NCBI GenBank assembly: GCA_020635455.1
Contig: JACJZT010000003.1
Location: 70,261-134,260 of the forward strand
From: Flavobacteriales bacterium
GTDB taxonomy: Bacteria > Bacteroidota > Bacteroidia > NS11-12g > UBA9320
Reading direction: 5' to 3'
DNA: 64,000 nt
Shown here: positions 1-21,745 of the stretch, piece after piece
How positions within the stretch are numbered: position 1 is the stretch's first letter
How the letters are laid out: each line of letters starts with the position of its first letter
Translations under genes and position numbers: made by a program
The notes under the pieces: generated by a model
Seen by the model: only the letters and a program-made list of their open reading frames with translations
Database searches by the model: none
Told to the model about the DNA's origin: nothing

Positions 1-628
1 TCCCATTCAGGAACATAATGAATTCGGTTTTAACATTGTTAAAATTGCCGAACGCCTCAATTCAGACAGCAATTATATCAGGATGAGTATGCTTGCCTAT
101 AACAGAGCTCCCGACCCGTTTGTGATCACAAGGGCCATAGCCAATTTTGAACGAACTCTTGTGAGTGGTAACAGCGCTTACGATAAATACACATATCTAA
201 AGGATAATACTGCACTTTCAAAAAATGAAATTAAAGGAATGAAACTATTCTTCAGCGAAAAAACAAATTGCTTCCAATGTCATGGTGGTTACAATTTTTC
301 CGACTACGCGTTTGAAAATAACGGGCTTTATGAAACCTATAAGGATATAGGAAGAATGCGATTAACAGGAGATCCAAAGGATGAAGCTTTGTTCAAAGTT
401 CCCACCCTGAGGAACATTTACTTTACTGCACCTTATATGCACGATGGTTCCATCGAAACTTTAATGGACGTGGTGGAACACTATAACTCCGGAGGTAAAA
501 ATCATCCACATAAAAGCAAACTTATCAAACCCCTTAACTTAAACCAAACTGAGAAAATTCAACTGGTAGACTTTCTGAATAGTTTATCGGATTATGAATT
601 TATAAGTAATGAAAAACACAAGCCGTAA
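1..628 (+). CDS. cytochrome c peroxidase (di-heme CCP/MauG family), 5'-truncated at the window edge
   Basis: The reading frame is open from nt 2 and the ORF-track protein carries a CFQCHGG heme-binding motif. Its C-terminal half aligns by eye with the downstream full-length CCP (PTLRNI..APYMHDG..HYNSG motif conserved in both). The upstream part is missing. Confidence 0.8.
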   Translation, partial: PIQEHNEFGFNIVKIAERLNSDSNYIRMSMLAYNRAPDPFVITRAIANFERTLVSGNSAYDKYTYLKDNTALSKNEIKGMKLFFSEKTNCFQCHGGYNFSDYAFENNGLYETYKDIGRMRLTGDPKDEALFKVPTLRNIYFTAPYMHDGSIETLMDVVEHYNSGGKNHPHKSKLIKPLNLNQTEKIQLVDFLNSLSDYEFISNEKHKP

Positions 629-9680: not shown

Positions 9681-10766
9681 ATGAAATTAAGAATTTTAAT
9701 TGTTTCCATGCTCCTTCTTTCATTGTATGCATGTAAACACGATAACCATGATGAACACGAAACCGTAACTTATACCGTTACCAGTCCGGTAATAAAGGAT
9801 ACGATAATTTATCATGAATATGTTTGTCAGATACACTCCATTCAACACATTGAACTTAGAACACTTGAAAAAGGCTTTATTCAGAAAATTTTCGTTGATG
9901 AAGGACAATTCGTTAAAAAAGGCCAAATGCTTTTTCAGATCACTCCGGTAATAAACTCGGCCGAAGTACAGAAAGCCAGAGCAGAGGTAAGTTTTGCCGA
10001 GATCGAATATCTGAATACCAAGCAACTTGCCGACAGCAATATTGTTTCGAAAAATGAGCTGGCGCTTGCCAAAGCAACGCTCGACAAGGCAAAAGCCCTT
10101 CTTGCACTCGCTCAGGCCCACCTCAGGTTTACGGAAACAAGAGCCCCATTCGACGGTATCGTTGGGCGGTTTAACGACGTAAGACTCGGAAGCCTTGTAG
10201 ATGAAGGAGAATTGCTCACCACTTTATCGGATAACAGCAACATGTGGGTTTACTTTAACGTGCCCGAAGCCGAATATCTCGATTACCGCAGTGAAAACAA
10301 AACAAGCTCCGTGATCAAGGTAAAGTTAAAACTAGCCAATAATTCTATGTTCAATCATGAAGGGGAAGTTAGAACCATTGAAGCGGATTTTAATAACGAA
10401 ACGGGGAACATCGCATTCAGGGCAACCTTTCCGAATTCGGAAAGTTTACTTAGAAACGGCCAAACCGGAAACATACTCTTACCGGTTTATCACAAGAATG
10501 CAATGCTAATTCCTCAAAAGGCAACTTTCGACATATTGAATAAAAAGTATGTATTTGTTTTGGACAAGAACAATGTTTTAAGTTCAAGAGAGATCAAGGT
10601 TGGAAATGACCTGCAGCACCTTTACGAGGTTCATTCAGGGCTTGACGAAAAAGACATCGTACTCGTTGATGGACTTCGAAAAGTAAAAAATGGCCAGAAG
10701 ATCAATACTGAGTTCATAAAGCAGGAAACGCTCTGGAAAGAGCTTAAGGATCTGCATGCTGAATAA
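9681..10766 (+). CDS. RND efflux periplasmic adaptor (membrane fusion protein, HlyD family), lipoprotein
   Basis: A lipobox (LSLYAC), a coiled-coil hairpin region, and beta-barrel and MP domains typical of the AcrA/MexA family. It is directly upstream of the RND permease. Confidence 0.8.
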   Translation: MKLRILIVSMLLLSLYACKHDNHDEHETVTYTVTSPVIKDTIIYHEYVCQIHSIQHIELRTLEKGFIQKIFVDEGQFVKKGQMLFQITPVINSAEVQKARAEVSFAEIEYLNTKQLADSNIVSKNELALAKATLDKAKALLALAQAHLRFTETRAPFDGIVGRFNDVRLGSLVDEGELLTTLSDNSNMWVYFNVPEAEYLDYRSENKTSSVIKVKLKLANNSMFNHEGEVRTIEADFNNETGNIAFRATFPNSESLLRNGQTGNILLPVYHKNAMLIPQKATFDILNKKYVFVLDKNNVLSSREIKVGNDLQHLYEVHSGLDEKDIVLVDGLRKVKNGQKINTEFIKQETLWKELKDLHAE

Positions 10767-10789
10767 TTAACGTTCTAATTTTTTAAAAA

Positions 10790-13700
10790 ATGTTCAGTAA
10801 ATTTATTCAAAGACCGGTTCTAGCTATTTCCATTTCATTAGCGATCGTTTTTCTGGGCGTTCTTGCAATTGTAACAAGACCAATTTCCCAGTTTCCGGAG
10901 ATCGCCCCTCCCCGTGTAAATATATTTATTGCTTATCCGGGCTCAAGTGCTCAGGTACTCGTTGAATCCACCCTCATTCCACTCGAAAGGGCCATCAATG
11001 GTGTTCAGGGAATGCAATATTTAATTTCAGATGCTACCAGCGCAGGAGAAGCAACCGTTCAAATCGTTTTTGAACCCGGAACGGATGCCAACGCTGCCGT
11101 AGTGAATGTGAAGACCCGGGTTGACGCCATCATGAACAATCTGCCCCCTCTTGTGCAAAGAGAAGGGATCATAATTACACCGATCCAGCCCAGTATGCTA
11201 ATGTATGTTAACCTTTTCAGCAAGGATAAAAATGCAGATGAAAAGTTTTTATACAATTACGCGAACGTTCATATTTTGCCTGAATTGCAAAGGATCAGTG
11301 GTATGGGAAGAGCCCAGATACTGGGAAGCCGGCAATATGCCATGAGGGTTTGGCTTAAACCCGACAGAATGAGGGCTTATAATGTCTCAACCGACGAAGT
11401 TATGGATGCCATGAAAGAGCAGAGCGTGATCGGTCGTCCGGGCCGATTAGGGCAAGCCTCAGGTAAAAAAGCACAATCGCTCGAATATGTTCTTACCTAC
11501 AAAGGTCGGTTCAACAAACCCGAAGAGTATGAGAACATTATTGTAAAAGCCAATACCAATGGTGAGATCATTAAGCTTAAGGATATTGCTGAAGTTGAGC
11601 TTGGTAGTGAGTTTTTCGACCTTTATTCAAACATTGACGGATATCCCTCTGCATCTATTGTGCTCAAACAAAATTTTGGAACCAATGCCAGTAAGGTAAT
11701 ACAAGGTGCAAAAGAAAAACTCGAGGAACTTAAGAAAGATTTTCCGCCGGGTATGGATTATGAGATCAATTACGATGTCTCAAAATTTGTGAACGCATCC
11801 ATCGAAAAAGTGCTGCATACACTTGTTGAAGCCTTTGTGCTCGTGGCATTGGTTGTGTTTATCTTTTTGGGTGACTGGCGTTCGACCTTAATTCCAATTA
11901 TAGCCGTTCCGGTTTCCCTGATTGGTGCATTTGTATTTATGCAGATGTTTGGTTTGACCATAAACCTTATCACTTTATTTGCTCTGGTATTATCGATCGG
12001 AATCGTGGTTGATGATGCCATTGTTGTAGTTGAGGCAGTGCACGCCAAAATGGAAGAAGAACATTTAAGCCCTTTCCATGCTGTAAAAAAAGTACTTGGA
12101 GAGATCAGCGGTGCCATCATTGCGATAACCTTGATCATGACAGCGGTTTTTGTGCCGGTGGCATTTATGACCGGACCTGTAGGAGTGTTTTACAGACAGT
12201 TTTCCATCACCATGGCGAGTTCCATAATTTTGTCGGGTATCGTTGCCTTAACATTAACTCCGGTGCTTTGCGCAATGATCCTTAAAAACAATCACGGAAA
12301 AACCAAAAGGAAGACACCGGTAGATCTTTTTATTGGCTGGTTCAACAAAATCTTTGGCAAACTTACAAACCGATATACCGACCTTTTAAAAATAGTCGTT
12401 AACCGAAGGCTTGTTACCTTTAGCATTCTGATAATCTTCGCTTTTGGGATCTTTTCGGTCAACAGGGTGCTTCCATCCGGATTCATCCCCAATGAAGATC
12501 AGGGAATGATCTATGCGATCATTCAAACACCTCCCGGTACAACCCTGGAAAGAACCAATGAAGTGTCACGGCAATTGCAAGAGGTTGCTGAAGATATCGA
12601 AGGTATACAATCTGTATCTTCTCTGGCTGGGTTTGAGATCCTTACGGAAGGCCGGGGTTCGAACGCCGGTACATGTATCATTAATTTAAAAGAATGGTCG
12701 GATCGAAAGCACAATGTACATGAGATCATTGAAGAGTTGGAATTAAAGTCTAAGAACCTTGGGGCCATCATTGAGTTTTTCGAGCCGCCTGCCGTTCCGG
12801 GATATGGTTCTTCAGACGGATTTTCACTCCGCTTACTCGACAAAAGCAGCACCATTGATTACCAGGAATTTGACAAAACAAATTCTGAGTTTATGGATGC
12901 TTTGCGAAAAAGAAAGGAATTGACCGGACTGTTTACGTTTTACGCAGCAAACTATCCCCAGTATGAACTGGTGATCGACAATCAGCTGGCAATGCAAAAA
13001 GGTGTTTCGATCGGTAAGGCTATGGAAAACCTTGATATCCTGATTGGCAGTACATATGAACAGGGATTTGTAAGGTTCAACACTTTTTTCAAGGTTTATA
13101 CTCAGTCCGGGCCGGAATACAGGCGCCTTCCTTCCGATGTTTTGAACTTGTTTATCAAAAACAATAAAGACGAGATGGTTCCCTATTCATCCTTTATGAA
13201 ACTGGTTAAAAGTCAGGGCCCAAATGAGATCACGCGTTTCAATCTTTACACTTCATCCGCGATCAGGGGTATGCCTGCCGAAGGCTACACCACAGGAGAT
13301 GCCATTAAAGCGATCAGGGAAGTGGCCGACCAAACACTTGGACAAGGTTATGACATTGCATGGGAAGGTTTATCGTACGACGAGTCGAACAGAGGAAATG
13401 AAGCACTGTACATTTTTATTGTGGTGCTGATTTTTGTTTACCTGGTACTATCCTCGCAATATGAAAGTTTTATCATACCGCTTTCGGTTGTTCTTTCATT
13501 ACCGGCCGGTGTATTTGGCTCCTTCTTTTTACTTAAGGTTATGGGATTGTCTAACGATATTTATGCACAGATCGGACTGATCATGCTGGTGGGATTGCTT
13601 GGTAAAAATGCTGTCTTAATTGTAGAATTTGCAGTTCAGAAACACCATAACGGTGCCAGCGTTCTTGCCTCGGCAATTGAAGGAGCCAAGGTCAGGTTCA

Positions 13701-14035
13701 GGCCCATTTTGATGACCTCGTTTGCGTTTATAGCCGGATTGATCCCACTGGTCACAGCAACCGGCCCGGGGGCCGTTGGCAATCGCACCATAGGAGCTTC
13801 AGCTTTGGGAGGCATGTTGTTAGGAACCGTATTCGGGGTCATCATTGTTCCGGGTTTGTATTATATTTTTGGAAGCCTTGCATCCGGAAGAAAAATGATT
13901 CAGGATGAAGACGTCAACCCGCTAACAGAGGATTTCGTGCATTCAAATTCTGAAGCTTCCCTGATAAAAAAAATAAGCAAACTAAATTTAATGTTAAAGG
14001 TAGCAAGACGTAAAAACAAGAAAAATGAAGACTAA
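10790..14035 (+). CDS. RND multidrug efflux permease (AcrB/HAE1 family)
   Basis: 1081 aa with 12 TM segments, two large periplasmic loops, and the conserved AcrB-type TM4 region (VLSIGIVVDDAIVVVE). Confidence 0.9.
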   Translation: MFSKFIQRPVLAISISLAIVFLGVLAIVTRPISQFPEIAPPRVNIFIAYPGSSAQVLVESTLIPLERAINGVQGMQYLISDATSAGEATVQIVFEPGTDANAAVVNVKTRVDAIMNNLPPLVQREGIIITPIQPSMLMYVNLFSKDKNADEKFLYNYANVHILPELQRISGMGRAQILGSRQYAMRVWLKPDRMRAYNVSTDEVMDAMKEQSVIGRPGRLGQASGKKAQSLEYVLTYKGRFNKPEEYENIIVKANTNGEIIKLKDIAEVELGSEFFDLYSNIDGYPSASIVLKQNFGTNASKVIQGAKEKLEELKKDFPPGMDYEINYDVSKFVNASIEKVLHTLVEAFVLVALVVFIFLGDWRSTLIPIIAVPVSLIGAFVFMQMFGLTINLITLFALVLSIGIVVDDAIVVVEAVHAKMEEEHLSPFHAVKKVLGEISGAIIAITLIMTAVFVPVAFMTGPVGVFYRQFSITMASSIILSGIVALTLTPVLCAMILKNNHGKTKRKTPVDLFIGWFNKIFGKLTNRYTDLLKIVVNRRLVTFSILIIFAFGIFSVNRVLPSGFIPNEDQGMIYAIIQTPPGTTLERTNEVSRQLQEVAEDIEGIQSVSSLAGFEILTEGRGSNAGTCIINLKEWSDRKHNVHEIIEELELKSKNLGAIIEFFEPPAVPGYGSSDGFSLRLLDKSSTIDYQEFDKTNSEFMDALRKRKELTGLFTFYAANYPQYELVIDNQLAMQKGVSIGKAMENLDILIGSTYEQGFVRFNTFFKVYTQSGPEYRRLPSDVLNLFIKNNKDEMVPYSSFMKLVKSQGPNEITRFNLYTSSAIRGMPAEGYTTGDAIKAIREVADQTLGQGYDIAWEGLSYDESNRGNEALYIFIVVLIFVYLVLSSQYESFIIPLSVVLSLPAGVFGSFFLLKVMGLSNDIYAQIGLIMLVGLLGKNAVLIVEFAVQKHHNGASVLASAIEGAKVRFRPILMTSFAFIAGLIPLVTATGPGAVGNRTIGASALGGMLLGTVFGVIIVPGLYYIFGSLASGRKMIQDEDVNPLTEDFVHSNSEASLIKKISKLNLMLKVARRKNKKNED

Positions 14036-15455
14036 GCAACTATCTAAATACTTCTTATTGGTCCTTTTCCCTGCAATTTTATGGGGATGTATTCCGGGCC
14101 TGAGATTTATAAAAACAGAAAACAGGACTTTACCACAAAATTTTGGTGAACATACAGATTCTTCAAACATTGCAAATAAAAACTGGAGAGAAGTATTTCA
14201 GGATTCGAATTTAATTTCACTGATCGATACAGCCTTAAAGAACAATCAGGAACTGAACATCATCCTTCAGGAAATAGAAATTTCGAAGAATGAGATCATG
14301 GCAAAAAAGGGTGAATATCTGCCATTTGTAAAGCTGGGTTTGGGTAATGGTCTGGAAAAATCCGGAAAATTCACACGAAATGGTGCCGTTGAAGAACAAC
14401 TTGATATTAAGGATGGAAAAAAGTTTCCGGAACCCTTACAGGATCATTTTTTTGGTGCTTCGGCGAGTTGGGAACTCGACATCTGGAATAAGCTAAGAAA
14501 CGCCAGAAAGTCATCTGTGGCAAGTTATCTGGCTTCTATTGAAGGCAAAAACTTTATGATCACCAATTTGGTTGCTGAAATTTCGGAGGCCTATTACGAA
14601 TTGATGGCTCTTGACAATGTACTGGATATTGTTGTGAAAAACATTGAAATTCAGTCGAGTGCCCTGAACGTTGTAAAACAGCAAAAGGATGCCGCCAAAG
14701 TATCCCAGCTTGCGGTAAATCGATTTCAGGCTCAGTTGCTGAACACTCAAAACCTGCAATATGAAGTTAAACAAAAGATCATTGAGACCGAAAACCGGAT
14801 TAATTTTCTTACCGGACAATTTCCACAAACCATTAAAAGAAACTGGAGAATTTATTTAAACCTGGACCTGAACACCTATCAAACAGGTATACCCTCAGAT
14901 CTTTTGATGAACAGGCCTGATATTAACCAGGCAGAGAACGAGTTGAATGCCTCTAAAATTGACGTTAAAGTTGCCAGAGCCGGATTTTTACCTTCAATGG
15001 CGATACGCGCCGGTATGGGATTTCAGGCCTTTAATCCGGTATTTCTTCTGAATCCCGAATCACTGATGTACAATTTTGCAGGAGATCTTGTTTCACCACT
15101 TATAAACCGAAAGGCGATCAAAACCGAATATTTCAATGCTAATTCAAAGCAAATTCAGGCAGTATATAATTATGAAAGAACTATACTGAATGCCTATCTG
15201 GACGTTTTGAATCAAATGTCGAAGATCGAAAACTATACTAAAAGTTTTGAAACCAAAAAGAATGAAGTGGATCTTTTGATACAGTCTGTAACCATTGCCA
15301 ACAGCCTGTTCAATGCTGCAAGGGCCGACTATGCAGAGGTTTTGTTAACTCAAAGGGAAGCCCTCGAATCAAAAATGGACCTGGTGGAGATCAAAATGAA
15401 ACAGATCAATGCAGAGATAAATATTTACCGCGCTTTGGGGGGAGGCTGGAGGTGA
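14025..15455 (+). CDS. RND efflux outer membrane factor (TolC/OprM family) lipoprotein
   Basis: A lipobox (LWGC) and two OEP repeats. Its ATG overlaps the stop of the permease (ATGA...TAA junction). Confidence 0.8.
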   Translation: MKTKQLSKYFLLVLFPAILWGCIPGLRFIKTENRTLPQNFGEHTDSSNIANKNWREVFQDSNLISLIDTALKNNQELNIILQEIEISKNEIMAKKGEYLPFVKLGLGNGLEKSGKFTRNGAVEEQLDIKDGKKFPEPLQDHFFGASASWELDIWNKLRNARKSSVASYLASIEGKNFMITNLVAEISEAYYELMALDNVLDIVVKNIEIQSSALNVVKQQKDAAKVSQLAVNRFQAQLLNTQNLQYEVKQKIIETENRINFLTGQFPQTIKRNWRIYLNLDLNTYQTGIPSDLLMNRPDINQAENELNASKIDVKVARAGFLPSMAIRAGMGFQAFNPVFLLNPESLMYNFAGDLVSPLINRKAIKTEYFNANSKQIQAVYNYERTILNAYLDVLNQMSKIENYTKSFETKKNEVDLLIQSVTIANSLFNAARADYAEVLLTQREALESKMDLVEIKMKQINAEINIYRALGGGWR

Positions 15456-15927
15456 AGATAATTATTTTATCCTTGATCGGTATAGAAATAATACGGTCAA
15501 ATGAAATTTAGGTATGTACTCATGTTTATCCATATGGTGTATTTAAAACAAGATCGGAAGCTCTCCTGTCCAATCCGTGTATTATGCAAAGCCTTAACAA
15601 AAATTTTTGCCAACAGATGGTTTTATTTTGTCATTGAGAGGTGTAAAAATTGTGCCTTTGAAACTGTAATTTTCAAATAATCAAAATACATACAGTTCAT
15701 AAAAACTATCTATTGGTAATGATTTTGTAATTACCTGCTGTGCAGTTCTTTAAGGTTTTTCCTCAACAATTGTATTGCTGCAGATAAGGGAAAACCTTGA
15801 AAATAGATTTTATTTAAATAGCCAAGGTCGATTAGCTTGATCCGTTACAAATAATAAACCTTTTGACTGAAAAACTATTGGCGTCGTTTAAAGATTATTT
15901 ATAATTATTGCATACATAATCTCAGTT

Positions 15928-17007
15928 TTAGAATGACCTTATGGCAACGATAAAATTGGAAGATTCAGGTCCGGTACCCGCCGAAGAAGGATCGATGAGG
16001 TTCTTTTTACTCAACCATTCCCGCAAGGTCCAATGCCAATCATGTTGACCCTGTTCGTCAGAACTCCAATAATCGTTAGGAAATGGATTGATGAATTTCA
16101 TGGTATACAACAATAAAAGATCCTGATTATTAGGTAAATACCAATCACGGTGGCCTTCAATGTTCAGTTTTCTGCAGTACATGTCGGCTTCTACCCATTT
16201 CATTTTCTTTTCATGAATGGTAAACACTTTGCCATGTTGAGTAATTTTATCGAGTACAAATACGGTTCCTCCTTCATAGAGTTCATTAAGCCTTGGTTTT
16301 TTCGCTTCAAGTAAAGCTATTTCGTGCAAACTGTCTTCAATTCTTTTCTGAGCAATCAGAGAATCATTTATTTTTCTTTCATGAATGGTATCTTGAATGG
16401 TAAACCCGGAATTGGTTTGTTCTGTGCTGTCGGTTATTATATCATCGACATCATTATTATGTGCATGATTGTAATAAATCCAAAAAGCAAACAACAAAAT
16501 AACAGACAAAAGAGCCAATAGCAATTTTGCATTCGTACTGAAAAATTTTTTAAAGGTATCCGGTTTTTCAAACTTGGAGTCAATACTACTTTCTGATTCT
16601 GAATACGGCGAGTTCAAATTTTGTAAAACGTCCATCAACTTCTCCATACCCTGTTGATATCCTTTTGTGAAATCAATGTATTGCATTCTGCGCAATCTGA
16701 AAGGAATATTACAATCTTCGATCAGTACAGGAATTACGGTTTTATTTTCACTCAAGGCAAATGAAACCTCGTCCATAACATTCTTGGAAGTCACAGAATG
16801 AGAAGAAAGAACAATTATGGTTGAACTACAATTCTTCAATGCCATTTCAATTTCCTCATCCCAAAGACTTCCGGGTAAAATGTCGAGGATGTCTAACCAA
16901 AATTGCGCTCCCTTTTTACGCAAATCATTCCCTAGTTTCCTAACAAAATCCGAATCCTTTCTTGAATAACTAAAGAAGCAGCTGTTTTCTAATGGTTTAT
17001 TTTTCAT
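15928..17007 (-). CDS. single-pass membrane protein with an N-terminal TIR domain and a C-terminal DUF1566 (Lcl C-terminal-like) domain
   Basis: The N-terminus (CFFSYSRKD..LGNDL...W.D.....G..W..EI..AL..CS..IIVLS..S..S.NVMDEV..A......VIPV) matches the bacterial TIR_2 pattern, including the conserved Glu. Residues ~164-181 form a hydrophobic helix (LLLALLSVILLFAFWIYY). The C-terminus (KWVEADMYCRKLNIEGHRDWYLPNNQDLLLLY) resembles the DUF1566 core (W.EA..YC..L...G..DWRLPT..EL..L). Confidence 0.7.
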   Translation of the reverse strand: MKNKPLENSCFFSYSRKDSDFVRKLGNDLRKKGAQFWLDILDILPGSLWDEEIEMALKNCSSTIIVLSSHSVTSKNVMDEVSFALSENKTVIPVLIEDCNIPFRLRRMQYIDFTKGYQQGMEKLMDVLQNLNSPYSESESSIDSKFEKPDTFKKFFSTNAKLLLALLSVILLFAFWIYYNHAHNNDVDDIITDSTEQTNSGFTIQDTIHERKINDSLIAQKRIEDSLHEIALLEAKKPRLNELYEGGTVFVLDKITQHGKVFTIHEKKMKWVEADMYCRKLNIEGHRDWYLPNNQDLLLLYTMKFINPFPNDYWSSDEQGQHDWHWTLREWLSKKNLIDPSSAGTGPESSNFIVAIRSF

Positions 17008-17270
17008 TTAAGAAGTCAATTTAGTCTTTTAATAACTGTTCGTAATTTAACGTAAATCCCTAAATCGATCATATCATCTGCCCGATAAGCAAGACATTCA
17101 TTATCAAGAGCAATTCTTCACGAGTTTGCTAAAGTAGAATAATAAGCCTTAGAAAAAAAACTAAAATTAGGGAATCGTGCAATTACCGAAGTTATTGAGC
17201 AATTGAGAAAGCCTACTTTTGCGAATTCAAATTAATATATGACTGAATTAAGTAGAGCGAATAAAAAACC

Positions 17271-17299
17271 CTCTGAAATTCAGAGGGTTATAATAATTA
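17271..17299 (-). terminator. rho-independent terminator downstream of tRNA-Glu
   Basis: A perfect 9-bp stem (AACCCTCTG / CAGAGGGTT) with a 5-nt loop, followed on the minus strand by a U-run (plus-strand ATAAAAAA at 17271-17278). Confidence 0.6.
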
Positions 17300-17303
17300 G
17301 TTG

Positions 17304-17375
17304 TAGTCCCTAGGGGAATCGAACCCCTCTTACCAGGATGAAAACCTGGTGTCCTAACCGATAGACGAAGGGACC
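17304..17375 (-). tRNA. tRNA-Glu (anticodon TTC)
   Basis: Reverse complement: GGTCCCTTCGTCTATCGGTTAGGACACCAGGTTTTCATCCTGGTAAGAGGGGTTCGATTCCCCTAGGGACTA. The cloverleaf folds by hand: a 7-bp acceptor stem with a G1:U72 pair, a CCAGG/CCTGG anticodon stem around the loop TTTTCAT, and a T-arm AGGGG-TTCGATT-CCCCT. CCA is not encoded. Confidence 0.85.
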
Positions 17376-20614: not shown

Positions 20615-21745
20615 ATGAAAAAAATATCCATTCTGTTCCTTTTTTTCTCTTTGGTCCACATTCATTTATATGCCGGTCCCGAACCTTCAGACCCATATAA
20701 AGACCTTCTCGGGAAACGATTTTTTGAAACACCGGTCTTTAACTGGTTGAACGAAATTGACCTGCAGGGTTCAGAAGAGGAATTCCAAACTGACGGCCTG
20801 GTTCTGTTCTTTAAACATTATTCGAAAGGGTACAAAATTGTATTCGATGTTAATTTAACGCTTACGAACCTTAATTTTTACGAAAAAGGTCGTATTTACA
20901 ATATGTATTCTGGTGTATTGCCCTACAACCTTAAATACGGTATGAAACGCGATTCTCTTTTAAGGTCCATTGAACTAAGACTCAGAGAGGTTGATGATAA
21001 TCCCTACATGTTGTACCGCGACTATGATTCCAGCAGGATGGAACTCTATTTCAATTCTACCGGTTTAACTCAGATAAGTTACCGTTTGACCGGAACTCCC
21101 CAAAAGCCGGATGACCAGGGCTTTGTTCGACTGGTTTCAAATGGAATGATCGTTTCAGGAGATTGCGAAAACCTTAATGGAAAAATGACATGGGAGGATG
21201 GAAAAGCGTATTATGAAGGTGAATGGAAAAATAATCTTCCCCATGGAAAAGGTTATTTTAGGGATCAGGAAAACAACTGGTATAAAGGTGATTTTAAATA
21301 CGGATATTTTTGGGGCAAGGGTGAATTAAACGTAAAGGGCCGATACACATACTCGGGAGATATGGTAATGAGCAGACGTCAGGGGACCGGTACCTGTAAA
21401 TACACCTTACCATCCGGAGAATTATATGAAGGACGCTGGCTTGAAGACCAAATGAACGGCCTGGGGAAATATTCTGTTGGTAAAAACTTTTATTATTACG
21501 GTCACATGGAAAACAATCTTTTCAACGGACATGGAAAGGTTGTTACTCAGGAAGGCTGGATGGAAGGTAGCTTTAAAGATGGATTACCGCACGGAAACAT
21601 AAAACAGTATATCAAAAAAGATAACGTTTACCTTGAAGGAAAATGGATCAATGGAAAAAAAGAAGGTCGTTTTAAGTTTACAGACGAGAAAAATAAACAG
21701 TCTTTTAAAAACTTTACCAACGATATTGAGATCGTAGACAAGTAA
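20615..21745 (+). CDS. MORN-repeat protein with signal peptide
   Basis: Multiple YEGEWKNNLPHGKG / YKGDFKYGYFWGKG / YEGRWLEDQMNGLG repeats, i.e. the MORN YxGxWxxGxxxGxG pattern. Confidence 0.7.
   Translation: MKKISILFLFFSLVHIHLYAGPEPSDPYKDLLGKRFFETPVFNWLNEIDLQGSEEEFQTDGLVLFFKHYSKGYKIVFDVNLTLTNLNFYEKGRIYNMYSGVLPYNLKYGMKRDSLLRSIELRLREVDDNPYMLYRDYDSSRMELYFNSTGLTQISYRLTGTPQKPDDQGFVRLVSNGMIVSGDCENLNGKMTWEDGKAYYEGEWKNNLPHGKGYFRDQENNWYKGDFKYGYFWGKGELNVKGRYTYSGDMVMSRRQGTGTCKYTLPSGELYEGRWLEDQMNGLGKYSVGKNFYYYGHMENNLFNGHGKVVTQEGWMEGSFKDGLPHGNIKQYIKKDNVYLEGKWINGKKEGRFKFTDEKNKQSFKNFTNDIEIVDK

What the first reader, a model, noticed from the sequence alone, without database searches (positions are those of the whole stretch)
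15928..17007. Toll-like-receptor-style bacterial membrane protein: cytoplasmic TIR, one TM helix, periplasmic DUF1566 (Lcl-C-like) domain
The sequence shows an N-terminal TIR_2-type domain (FFSYSRKD...W.D.....G..W..EI..AL......IIVLS..S..S.NVMDEV) that keeps the conserved Glu bacterial TIR NADases use for catalysis. A single 18-residue hydrophobic helix follows. The C-terminal domain has the DUF1566 core W.EA..YC..L...GHRDWYLP...L..L. By the positive-inside rule (K/R-rich N-terminus) the TIR faces the cytoplasm and the DUF1566 domain, which may be lectin-like or ligand-binding, faces the periplasm or surface. This receptor-TM-TIR arrangement matches eukaryotic TLR topology and differs from the soluble TIRs of Thoeris, CBASS-TIR or TIR-STING. 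I found no partner gene such as ThsA or a cyclase. It may be a single-gene envelope-sensing TIR effector that depletes NAD or produces signal nucleotides in response to phage, or a signalling receptor. I do not recall this fusion being characterised.
Basis: partly seen in the sequence, partly recalled or inferred. Interest (0 to 1): 0.72.

Follow-up and report, generated by a model that had tools for sequence, protein, structure and literature searches.

The report
Membrane-anchored bacterial TIR with lectin-like ectodomain
This gene encodes a single-pass membrane protein with an NAD-cleaving-type TIR domain inside the cell and a lectin-like DUF1566 domain outside; it belongs to a large, uncharacterised family of bacterial "TIR receptors" whose relatives often sit next to cell-death effector genes, although this copy stands alone.

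Summary

The gene belongs to a large TIR-TM-variable-ectodomain family: 943 clusters at E<=1e-30, mainly Bacteroidota and Acidobacteriota. The TIR is conserved (65% identity) and the ectodomain diverges (36%).

The window holds no partner gene. However, 29 of 85 related loci carry one next to the TIR gene: a caspase-DUF676-TPR-S protein, or TPR-S, patatin or SLATT genes. These include two DUF1566-type members.

The most likely function is an envelope-facing sensor whose clustering activates a TIR NADase, in a conflict or cell-death system. This is inferred, not shown.

I found no paper describing this architecture. I rate it a new variant of a known kind. The TLR analogy is functional only, because the membrane orientation is inverted.

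The parts
15928..17007 (-). Complete ORF, 359 aa: TIR - linker - TM - stalk helix - DUF1566. The stop codon is at 15928-15930.
   Evidence: ORF listing. A 100% identical protein, P0001, from a Flavobacteriales MAG.
16612..16983 (-). Cytoplasmic TIR domain (residues 9-132), carrying the family signature FFSYSR.DS...W.D..D...G..WD...S.NVMDEV...C.IPFRLRR.Q
16768..16770 (-). Codon for Glu80, the putative catalytic glutamate of the TIR NADase site
   Evidence: Aligns with the Glu of 'KELAVA' in SPARTA TIR-APAZ chains. Conserved in 119/120 and 99/100 relatives. Codon verified. That the SPARTA residue (E77) is catalytic is from my own knowledge.
16531..16611 (-). Low-confidence cytoplasmic linker (residues 133-159), K-rich next to the membrane
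   Evidence: pLDDT below 50 for residues 136-157. 4 K/R in the 15 residues before the TM helix.
16471..16524 (-). Single transmembrane helix, hydrophobic core residues 162-179 (LLLALLSVILLFAFWIYY)
   Evidence: Best 19-residue Kyte-Doolittle window (160-178) scores 2.31 and is the only such segment. AF2 helix 160-183 with pLDDT about 90. Translation checked.
16303..16395 (-). Periplasmic amphipathic helix (residues 205-235), possibly a coiled-coil stalk
   Evidence: AF2 helix 205-235 with pLDDT 76-80. Hydrophobic residues recur every 3-5 positions. The coiled-coil role is inferred.
15931..16290 (-). Extracytoplasmic DUF1566 / Lcl_C domain (residues 240-359), C-type-lectin-like fold

Best explanation
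The gene encodes a type II (N-in) single-pass inner-membrane protein of a Flavobacteriales bacterium. A cytoplasmic TIR domain with the catalytic-type Glu80 is joined to a periplasmic DUF1566 (Lcl-C, C-type-lectin-like) ligand-binding domain. A flexible linker, one TM helix and a periplasmic helical stalk connect the two. The protein is one member of a large modular family, TIR-TM-variable ectodomain, found mainly in Bacteroidota and Acidobacteriota.

Proposed mechanism:
1. The ectodomain binds an envelope-side ligand or partner. Candidates are a glycan, a phage or invader surface component, or a signal of envelope damage.
2. Binding clusters or re-orients the receptors.
3. The cytoplasmic TIR domains self-associate. 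In known TIR enzymes such as SARM1, AbTir, SPARTA and TIR-STING, self-association is what builds the active NADase site.
4. NAD+ is cleaved. This depletes NAD+ and/or produces an ADPR-derived signal.
5. In about a third of related loci a co-encoded TPR-S-containing effector probably receives that output. These effectors are caspase+esterase proteins, or BcTpr-like proteins with patatin and sometimes SLATT. In this window no effector is encoded, so the output is either NAD+ depletion itself or an unlinked effector.

What is shown: the architecture, topology, Glu conservation, family size, ectodomain variability and the operon links in relatives. What is inferred: steps 1 to 5.
For: - **Architecture:**
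- **Glu80:** aligned to the SPARTA TIR Glu and near-invariant within the S-x-NVMDEV motif. The closest defence-library match is the TIR of SPARTA-type TIR-APAZ.
- **Topology across the family:** 94/100 relatives have a TM segment after the TIR. K/R is richer on the N flank in 83 and on the C flank in 2. The ectodomains are envelope modules such as OmpA, SPOR, PASTA, BON, CarboxypepD_reg, Sel1/TPR, FGE-sulfatase and DUF1566.
- **Sensor-like evolution:** TIR pairwise identity is 65% and DUF1566 identity is 36% among 48 TIR-TM-DUF1566 proteins.
- **DUF1566 binds ligands:** Lcl-CTD is a trimeric GAG-binding C-type-lectin-like domain (PMC11162425). DUF1566 is also a frequent DGR target domain (papers listed).
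- **Link to conflict systems in relatives:**
  - 24/85 loci carry an operon TM-TPR protein, small TM protein, Peptidase_C14+DUF676+TPR-S protein, then 1-3 TIR-TM-X genes.
  - L090 and L091 have TIR-TM-DUF1566 followed by TPR-S/MAP3K_TRAF_bd, patatin and, in L090, SLATT.
  - L044, L062 and L082 have patatin or SLATT adjacent to the TIR gene.
- **Precedent:** A TIR + TPR-core operon has reported anti-phage activity (bioRxiv 10.1101/2023.05.26.542521).
Against: - No partner gene or defence gene lies in the 64-kb window. The neighbours are housekeeping genes.
- 56 of 85 related loci likewise show no recognisable partner, and sampled solo contexts are not defence islands.
- No enzymatic or phage data exist for any family member.
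- In the one studied TIR+TPR system the authors report that the TIR protein itself was not the NADase.
- The ligand of the ectodomain is unknown. The GAG-binding lysines of Lcl are poorly conserved even within Legionella.
- The coiled-coil and oligomerisation step rests on a monomer model only.
Confidence: 0.5

Rival explanations
1. It is a physiological (non-immune) transmembrane receptor. The periplasmic lectin-like domain senses a glycan, peptidoglycan fragment or other envelope or nutrient cue, and the TIR makes a low-level NAD-derived second messenger that regulates normal physiology. This would be a new kind of bacterial one-component transmembrane signalling.
For: The gene sits among housekeeping genes and is not on an island or mobile element. 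No tRNA-derived repeat is present, GC content is unremarkable and there is no DGR. 56 of 85 loci have no effector neighbour. Family ectodomains include peptidoglycan and envelope-binding modules such as SPOR, PASTA, OmpA and BON. The solved DUF1566 relative binds polysaccharide.
Against: No known bacterial housekeeping pathway uses TIR-made messengers. When partners are present they are cell-death-type effectors: caspase, patatin and SLATT. The fast-diverging ectodomain beside a conserved TIR fits conflict-type evolution.
Confidence: 0.2
2. The TIR acts as a non-catalytic adaptor or scaffold. It recruits or regulates a TPR-S-type partner or other TIR proteins at the membrane through TIR-TIR or TIR-TPR contacts, and another protein does the chemistry.
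Against: Glu80 and the surrounding S-x-NVMDEV motif are near-invariant, even in the divergent tandem copies where 13/13 keep it. That is hard to explain without catalysis. No partner is encoded in this window.
Confidence: 0.15
3. It is a host-directed or secreted TIR virulence factor (Tcp-like), or a non-functional gene remnant.
For: Some bacterial TIR proteins interfere with eukaryotic TLR signalling, as summarised in PMC7075850.
Against: The protein has no signal peptide and the TIR lies on the cytoplasmic side. The family is found in environmental Bacteroidota and Acidobacteriota. The ORF is intact, with all domain cores conserved and confidently modelled.
Confidence: 0.03

Closest known systems
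TIR + TPR-core ('TPR-S') conflict systems. According to the BcTir/BcTpr preprint (bioRxiv 10.1101/2023.05.26.542521), Burroughs & Aravind 2020 proposed them and the Bacillus cereus BcTir/BcTpr pair has anti-phage activity.
   Same: Relatives of this protein are encoded directly next to TPR-S proteins: a BcTpr-like protein with patatin (L090, L091), or a caspase-DUF676-TPR-S fusion (24 loci). Both use a TIR_2-type domain. The preprint's Figure 5 legend lists TM, caspase and patatin elements among such assemblies.
   Different: The window gene has no TPR-S neighbour. BcTir is a small soluble TIR, whereas this protein adds a TM helix and an extracytoplasmic DUF1566 domain. That architecture is not described in the text I could read.
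Thoeris (ThsB TIR sensors plus ThsA-type effectors, types I-XI)
   Same: The logic may be shared: a TIR protein senses the trigger and makes an ADPR-derived signal for a separate effector. Thoeris effectors include caspase-like proteases and SLATT or other membrane proteins (bioRxiv 10.64898/2025.12.03.692087). Related loci here have caspase, patatin and SLATT neighbours.
   Different: No effector is adjacent in this window. ThsB_TIR scores below its cutoff (20.8 against 21.2 bits). In the paper read, transmembrane helices are described only for Thoeris effectors, never for the TIR protein, whereas this TIR is membrane-anchored with a periplasmic domain. The gene is not in a defence island.
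SPARTA TIR-APAZ (TIR effector of short prokaryotic Argonaute systems)
   Same: It gives the closest defence-library match (4.6e-21), and SPARTA chains are the best bacterial matches among solved structures (sequence E 2e-6, Foldseek E 1.9e-7). The catalytic-type Glu aligns. SPARTA activity depends on oligomerisation, which is the model proposed here.
   Different: There is no APAZ domain and no Argonaute partner. The trigger here would be extracytoplasmic rather than nucleic-acid guided.
Animal Toll-like and IL-1 receptors
   Different: TLRs have an N-terminal LRR ectodomain and a C-terminal TIR. Here the order is reversed and the ectodomain is DUF1566. The resemblance is convergent modular logic, not shared ancestry of the whole architecture. 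This TIR keeps the enzymatic Glu.
Legionella Lcl adhesin C-terminal domain and small secreted DUF1566 proteins, including DGR targets
   Same: The ectodomain shares their fold and sequence family. These domains are ligand-binding and tolerate variation.
   Different: Lcl is a secreted collagen-like trimeric adhesin with no cytoplasmic output. The window has no DGR: no TR/VR repeat and no reverse transcriptase.
Predicted 'effector + lectin-fold sensor' counter-invader systems: TIR or caspase with FGS/CLec/NPCBM domains, often with STAND NTPases (Kaur et al. 2021, PMC8195603; Dore et al. 2024, PMC10907252)
   Same: The concept is the same: a TIR effector coupled to a C-type-lectin-fold sensor that diversifies. 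Some family members carry FGE-sulfatase (FGS) ectodomains.
   Different: In the passages read, the TIR-lectin fusions are coupled through STAND or MoxR-vWA NTPases. Here a single TM helix is the only coupler and there is no NTPase.

Membership tests
Pfam TIR_2 (PF13676) / enzymatic TIR domains | HMM score at or above the gathering cutoff | tested here: met
   100.5 bits against a cutoff of 28, residues 11-124.
Pfam TIR_2 (PF13676) / enzymatic TIR domains | Conserved catalytic glutamate at the position used by TIR NADases | tested here: met
   Glu80 aligns with the Glu of 'KELAVA' in SPARTA TIR-APAZ. Conserved in 119/120 and 99/100 relatives. That the SPARTA residue is catalytic is from my own knowledge.
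Pfam TIR_2 (PF13676) / enzymatic TIR domains | NAD+ glycohydrolase or cyclase activity | not testable with these tools
   Requires biochemistry.
Pfam Lcl_C / DUF1566 (PF07603) | HMM score at or above the gathering cutoff (34.9 bits) | tested here: inconclusive
   34.0 bits for the full protein and 35.5 bits for the ectodomain alone. The precomputed Pfam list for the identical protein includes PF07603.
Pfam Lcl_C / DUF1566 (PF07603) | Same fold and sequence family as the solved Lcl C-terminal domain | tested here: met
Thoeris | TIR (ThsB) gene adjacent to an effector gene carrying a signal-binding domain | tested here: not met
   No such gene lies beside the ORF. Neighbours are an efflux pump, tRNA and GAPDH. 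HMMs for caspase, TPR-S, patatin, SLATT and S_4TM find nothing in the window. ThsB_TIR scores 20.8 against a cutoff of 21.2.
TIR + TPR-S core systems (BcTir/BcTpr type) | A TPR-S/MAP3K_TRAF_bd core protein encoded next to the TIR gene | tested here: not met
   Absent from the window. Present next to related TIR-TM-DUF1566 genes in L090 and L091, and as a caspase-DUF676-TPR-S fusion in 24 loci. The rest of this genome could not be examined.
SPARTA / short pAgo systems | TIR fused to APAZ and paired with a short Argonaute | tested here: not met
   Only the TIR part of the PADLOC TIR-APAZ models is matched, positions 6-148 of 430. The rest of the protein is a TM helix plus DUF1566.
Toll-like receptors | N-terminal LRR ectodomain, TM helix, C-terminal cytoplasmic TIR | tested here: not met
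   The order is reversed (N-terminal TIR, C-terminal ectodomain) and the ectodomain is DUF1566, not LRR. TLR definition taken from PMC7075850.
DGR-diversified DUF1566/CLec targets | Variable repeat in the lectin domain with a matching template repeat and a reverse transcriptase nearby | tested here: not met
   No second copy of any part of the gene exists in the window, and no RT-like ORF.
TIR-TM-variable-ectodomain family (defined here) | N-terminal TIR with the S-x-NVMDEV signature, one TM helix after it, N-in charge bias and an extracytoplasmic C-terminal module | tested here: met
   The window protein scores 222 bits on the family TIR HMM, has one TM helix and 4 versus 0 K/R across it. Its TIR is 48-63% identical to the other TIR-TM-DUF1566 members.

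The most novel reading that the evidence does not exclude
Bacteria have a widespread class of true transmembrane TIR receptors. A rapidly diversifying extracytoplasmic domain (here a lectin-like DUF1566) detects an invader or envelope cue outside the cytoplasm. It passes that signal across the inner membrane by ligand-induced clustering, which switches on a cytoplasmic TIR NADase. The NAD-derived product or NAD+ loss then triggers TPR-S-linked caspase, patatin or SLATT effectors, or growth arrest. This would be outside-in innate immune sensing in prokaryotes, functionally parallel to Toll-like receptors but independently assembled.
Probability: 0.3. Interest if true: 0.85.

Novelty: new variant of a known kind. 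Interest (0 to 1): 0.62.

Why it matters
The characterised bacterial TIR systems met in this work (Thoeris, CBASS TIR-STING and TIR-SAVED, SPARTA, SpbK, BcTir) use TIR proteins for which no membrane anchor was described in what I read. As far as I know they are triggered from inside the cell.

A family of about a thousand 50%-identity clusters puts the TIR behind a single TM helix and hangs interchangeable envelope-binding domains on the outside. This suggests bacteria can couple extracytoplasmic recognition directly to TIR chemistry. If so, TIR signalling would extend to the cell envelope, and a prokaryotic counterpart to receptor-type TIR signalling would become testable.

Two further points follow from the related loci:
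- The recurrent link to TPR-S proteins fused or paired with caspase, esterase, patatin and SLATT genes gives concrete candidate downstream effectors.
- Several cultured Flavobacteriaceae carry the operon version, including Aequorivita, Leeuwenhoekiella, Croceivirga and Lutibacter, so experiments are feasible.

For this particular window the gene is a solo copy in a housekeeping neighbourhood. Its own role is therefore less certain than that of the family.

Tried and rejected
- **Island at the upstream tRNA-Glu:** No tRNA-derived direct repeat and no composition shift. Rejected.
- **DGR diversification of the DUF1566 domain:** No template/variable repeat pair and no RT-like ORF. Rejected.
- **Database search with the ectodomain alone:** Returned nothing because of the word-index limit. 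A profile search found only small stand-alone DUF1566 proteins, so it gave no information on alternative cytoplasmic output domains.
- **The look-up of encoding contigs for the exact protein:** Not on record, so the rest of the 587-kb source contig could not be searched for unlinked TPR-S or effector genes.
- **Literature on 'TPR-S':** The term is absent from the searchable library, and Burroughs & Aravind 2020 (PMC7685563) is not held. Its content is cited only second-hand through the BcTir/Tpr preprint.
- **Sigma-70 promoter scan:** Not above background, 11 found against 9.8 expected, and not suited to Bacteroidota promoters.
- **Rfam:** Only the tRNA was found.
- **Hanamia homolog next to an efflux operon:** This looked like a shared context with the window's RND operon. 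It did not recur in other loci, so I treat it as coincidence.
Full report
**1. What is in the sequence**

An identical protein is deposited from a Flavobacteriales MAG as 'TIR domain-containing protein'.

Pfam gives TIR_2 at 100.5 bits against a cutoff of 28, over residues 11-124. It gives Lcl_C/DUF1566 at 34.0 bits, just under the 34.9 cutoff, over residues 265-329. When the ectodomain is scanned alone the Lcl_C score is 35.5 bits, just over the cutoff. I therefore tested the DUF1566 assignment in three independent ways:
- The C-terminal 120 residues align along their whole length with the DUF1566 domains of 23 homologs. They share GG..F..D...HG, W, C, DW.LP, L..LY, YWSS and (V/I)R.F.
- The profile of that alignment hits the solved structure 8q4e at E = 3.5e-26 over its full length.

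The domain call is sound.

The only strongly hydrophobic segment is LLLALLSVILLFAFWIYY, residues 162-179. The best 19-residue Kyte-Doolittle window, 160-178, scores 2.31. AF2 models a helix at 160-183. The model also shows a disordered cytoplasmic linker (136-157), a disordered juxtamembrane stretch (187-203) and a long amphipathic periplasmic helix (205-235) leading into the DUF1566 domain.

**2. The TIR and its glutamate**

Against solved structures, the TIR aligns with SPARTA TIR-APAZ chains so that Glu80 (nt 16768-16770) falls on the Glu of their 'KELAVA' motif. From my own knowledge, that residue is the catalytic E77 of SPARTA. PADLOC's best matches are also the TIR part of short-pAgo TIR-APAZ models, at 4.6e-21.

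**3. Topology**

The N-terminus has no signal peptide. The 15 residues before the helix hold 4 K/R and the 15 after it hold none.

The same holds across the family. Of 100 non-redundant relatives, 94 have a TM segment after the TIR and 85 have exactly one. The K/R count is higher on the N flank in 83 and on the C flank in 2.

The C-terminal modules of relatives also point outward. They are domains that work outside the cytoplasmic membrane: OmpA, SPOR, PASTA, BON, CarboxypepD_reg, Sel1/TPR, FGE-sulfatase, Fib_succ_major and DUF1566. The TIR is therefore cytoplasmic and the DUF1566 domain is periplasmic.

This is the reverse polarity of Toll-like receptors, which have an N-terminal ectodomain and a C-terminal TIR (PMC7075850). 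The TLR likeness is one of logic, not of descent.

**4. The family**

A full scan of 1.84 billion cluster representatives finds 943 at E <= 1e-30 and 7,585 at E <= 1e-10. Two signature peptides (SxNVMDEVS and G.x.W[LI]DQLD) find 310 confirmed loci among species-representative genomes. Most are Flavobacteriaceae, Chitinophagaceae, Saprospiraceae and Acidobacteriota, with a few Proteobacteria, Gemmatimonadota and Ignavibacteria. Cultured strains are included, among them Aequorivita, Leeuwenhoekiella, Croceivirga, Lutibacter, Segetibacter and Massilia.

The ectodomain is highly variable, and most have no Pfam match at all. DUF1566 is the most frequent recognisable type, found in 48 of the top 120 hits to the query and in 6 of 88 ectodomains from genomes. 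Among the 48 TIR-TM-DUF1566 proteins, the TIR averages 65% pairwise identity and the DUF1566 domain 36%. That pattern is a conserved output joined to a fast-diverging input.

The nearest relatives of the ectodomain outside the family are small stand-alone DUF1566 proteins of Bacteroidota.

**5. Genomic context**

In the window the gene stands alone:
- Downstream, in convergent orientation, lies an RND efflux operon (HlyD, AcrB, OEP; 9681-15455).
- Upstream lies tRNA-Glu(UUC) at 17303-17375, with its own terminator-like hairpin at 17267-17289.
- Beyond that are GAPDH, AlgH, a HAD hydrolase and a MORN protein.

There is no tRNA-derived repeat, no composition shift and no DGR. HMMs built from the partner genes described below find nothing in the 64 kb.

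Related loci tell a richer story. In 24 of 85 distinct loci, all with Flavobacteriaceae-type titles, the TIR gene or genes end a conserved same-strand gene string:
- a ~659-aa TM plus TPR-like protein;
- a ~176-aa TM protein;
- a ~734-aa protein with Peptidase_C14 (caspase, 1e-19), DUF676 esterase (8.6e-7) and TPR-S (7e-11);
- one to three TIR-TM-X genes.

Two TIR-TM-DUF1566 genes, in L090 and L091, are followed within 6-19 bp by a ~425-aa TPR-S/MAP3K_TRAF_bd protein and a patatin phospholipase. L090 also has a SLATT_1 gene. L062, L044 and L082 have patatin and/or SLATT (plus a TPR-S-like gene in L044) next to the TIR gene. L089 has an S_4TM gene two genes downstream.

In total, 29 of 85 loci are partner-linked and 56, like the window, are not. 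Some of the 56 are short contigs. The other sampled DUF1566-type contexts (L001, L004, L006, L008) show unrelated housekeeping neighbours. Tandem TIR paralogs occur in 20 of the 85 distinct loci (22 of the 89 fetched).

**6. What is known**

No paper in the library holds both 'DUF1566' and 'TIR domain'. None describes bacterial membrane-anchored TIRs.

The TIR + TPR-core arrangement is known. A preprint reports anti-phage activity for Bacillus cereus BcTir/BcTpr, and cites Burroughs & Aravind 2020 for TPR-centred assemblies with TIR, YpsA, patatin, caspase and TM elements. I could not read the 2020 paper itself.

The general idea of TIR or caspase effectors coupled to lectin-fold sensors has been put forward for STAND or MoxR systems (PMC8195603; PMC10907252). 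In the Thoeris paper I read, transmembrane helices are described only for effector proteins such as the SLATT and DUF2270 effectors, not for the TIR protein. DUF1566 is a ligand-binding C-type-lectin-like domain. Lcl-CTD is a trimer that binds glycosaminoglycans, and DUF1566 is a frequent DGR target.

**7. Interpretation**

Most likely (about 0.5), the protein is a transmembrane sensor-effector. Events at the DUF1566 domain in the periplasm cluster the receptor. The TIRs then assemble into an active NADase, as established for other TIR enzymes. NAD+ is depleted and/or an ADPR-type signal is produced. In partner-linked relatives that output probably feeds TPR-S-containing caspase, esterase, patatin or SLATT effectors. 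Every step after the architecture is inferred.

The rivals are:
- a physiological envelope or nutrient receptor using an NAD-derived messenger (0.2), favoured by the housekeeping context;
- a non-catalytic adaptor TIR (0.15), favoured by the BcTir report but disfavoured by the invariant Glu;
- a host-directed factor or a dead gene (0.03).

**8. Verdict**

It is right on domains, topology, solo status in the window and lack of prior characterisation. It needs correcting on the TLR 'match', since the polarity is inverted. It also needs correcting on the single-gene picture, since the family is modular and often operon-linked to cell-death effectors.

I rate this a new variant of a known kind (TIR-based conflict or signalling systems). 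Interest is moderate to high for the family and somewhat lower for this particular solo copy.

Noticed in passing
L014, L017, L020, L026, L032, L034, L036, L039, L040, L047, L048, L058, L060, L064-L067, L070, L071, L075 and others (e.g. L040:2964-10457): A conserved same-strand operon in Flavobacteriaceae: a ~659-aa TM+TPR-like protein, a ~176-aa TM protein, a ~734-aa Peptidase_C14+DUF676+TPR-S protein, then 1-3 TIR-TM-X genes. Often one TIR gene is canonical and one is divergent, and both keep the Glu. I found no description of this operon in the papers I could search.
   Followed up: partly
L090:7001-11680 and L091:7001-10831: A TIR-TM-DUF1566 gene is followed directly by a BcTpr-like TPR-S/MAP3K_TRAF_bd gene, then a patatin gene and, in L090, a SLATT_1 gene. 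L044, L062 and L082 show related patatin or SLATT neighbours.
   Followed up: partly
P0241-P0243, P0249, P0250, P0252, P0254: Giant proteins of 1,400-2,300 aa contain 5-7 separate stretches matching this TIR domain, i.e. tandem multi-TIR proteins. P0266 (3,693 aa) has 17 matched stretches, and its best-scoring stretch aligns to the DUF1566 core (query residues 277-319).
   Followed up: no
L008:3372-5146: Two more TIR_2 genes lie 3-5 kb upstream of the family member in a Prolixibacteraceae MAG. One is 155 aa, and one is 413 aa and fused to an RDD membrane domain. This looks like a local cluster of membrane-associated TIR paralogs.
   Followed up: no
window 17303-17375 (-) and 17267-17289 (-): tRNA-Glu (anticodon UUC) lies immediately upstream of the TIR gene and is followed by a strong terminator-like hairpin (AACCCTCTGAATTTCAGAGGGTT + T-run). 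No tRNA-derived repeat marks an integration event.
   Followed up: yes
window 9681-15455 (+): A complete tripartite RND efflux operon (HlyD-type adaptor, AcrB-type pump, OEP outer-membrane factor) is convergent with the TIR gene. A Hanamia homolog also follows an efflux-type operon (L001). This is probably coincidence.
   Followed up: partly
window 20615-21745 (+): A 376-aa protein with a signal-peptide-like N-terminus and MORN repeats. MORN is a repeat type I associate mainly with eukaryotic proteins.
   Followed up: no
window 15456-15927: A 472-bp gap with no ORF of 60 aa or more lies between the efflux operon and the 3' end of the TIR gene. It contains a 15-nt inverted repeat (15749-15763 / 15787-15801) that could be a shared terminator. 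No Rfam family matches it.
   Followed up: no
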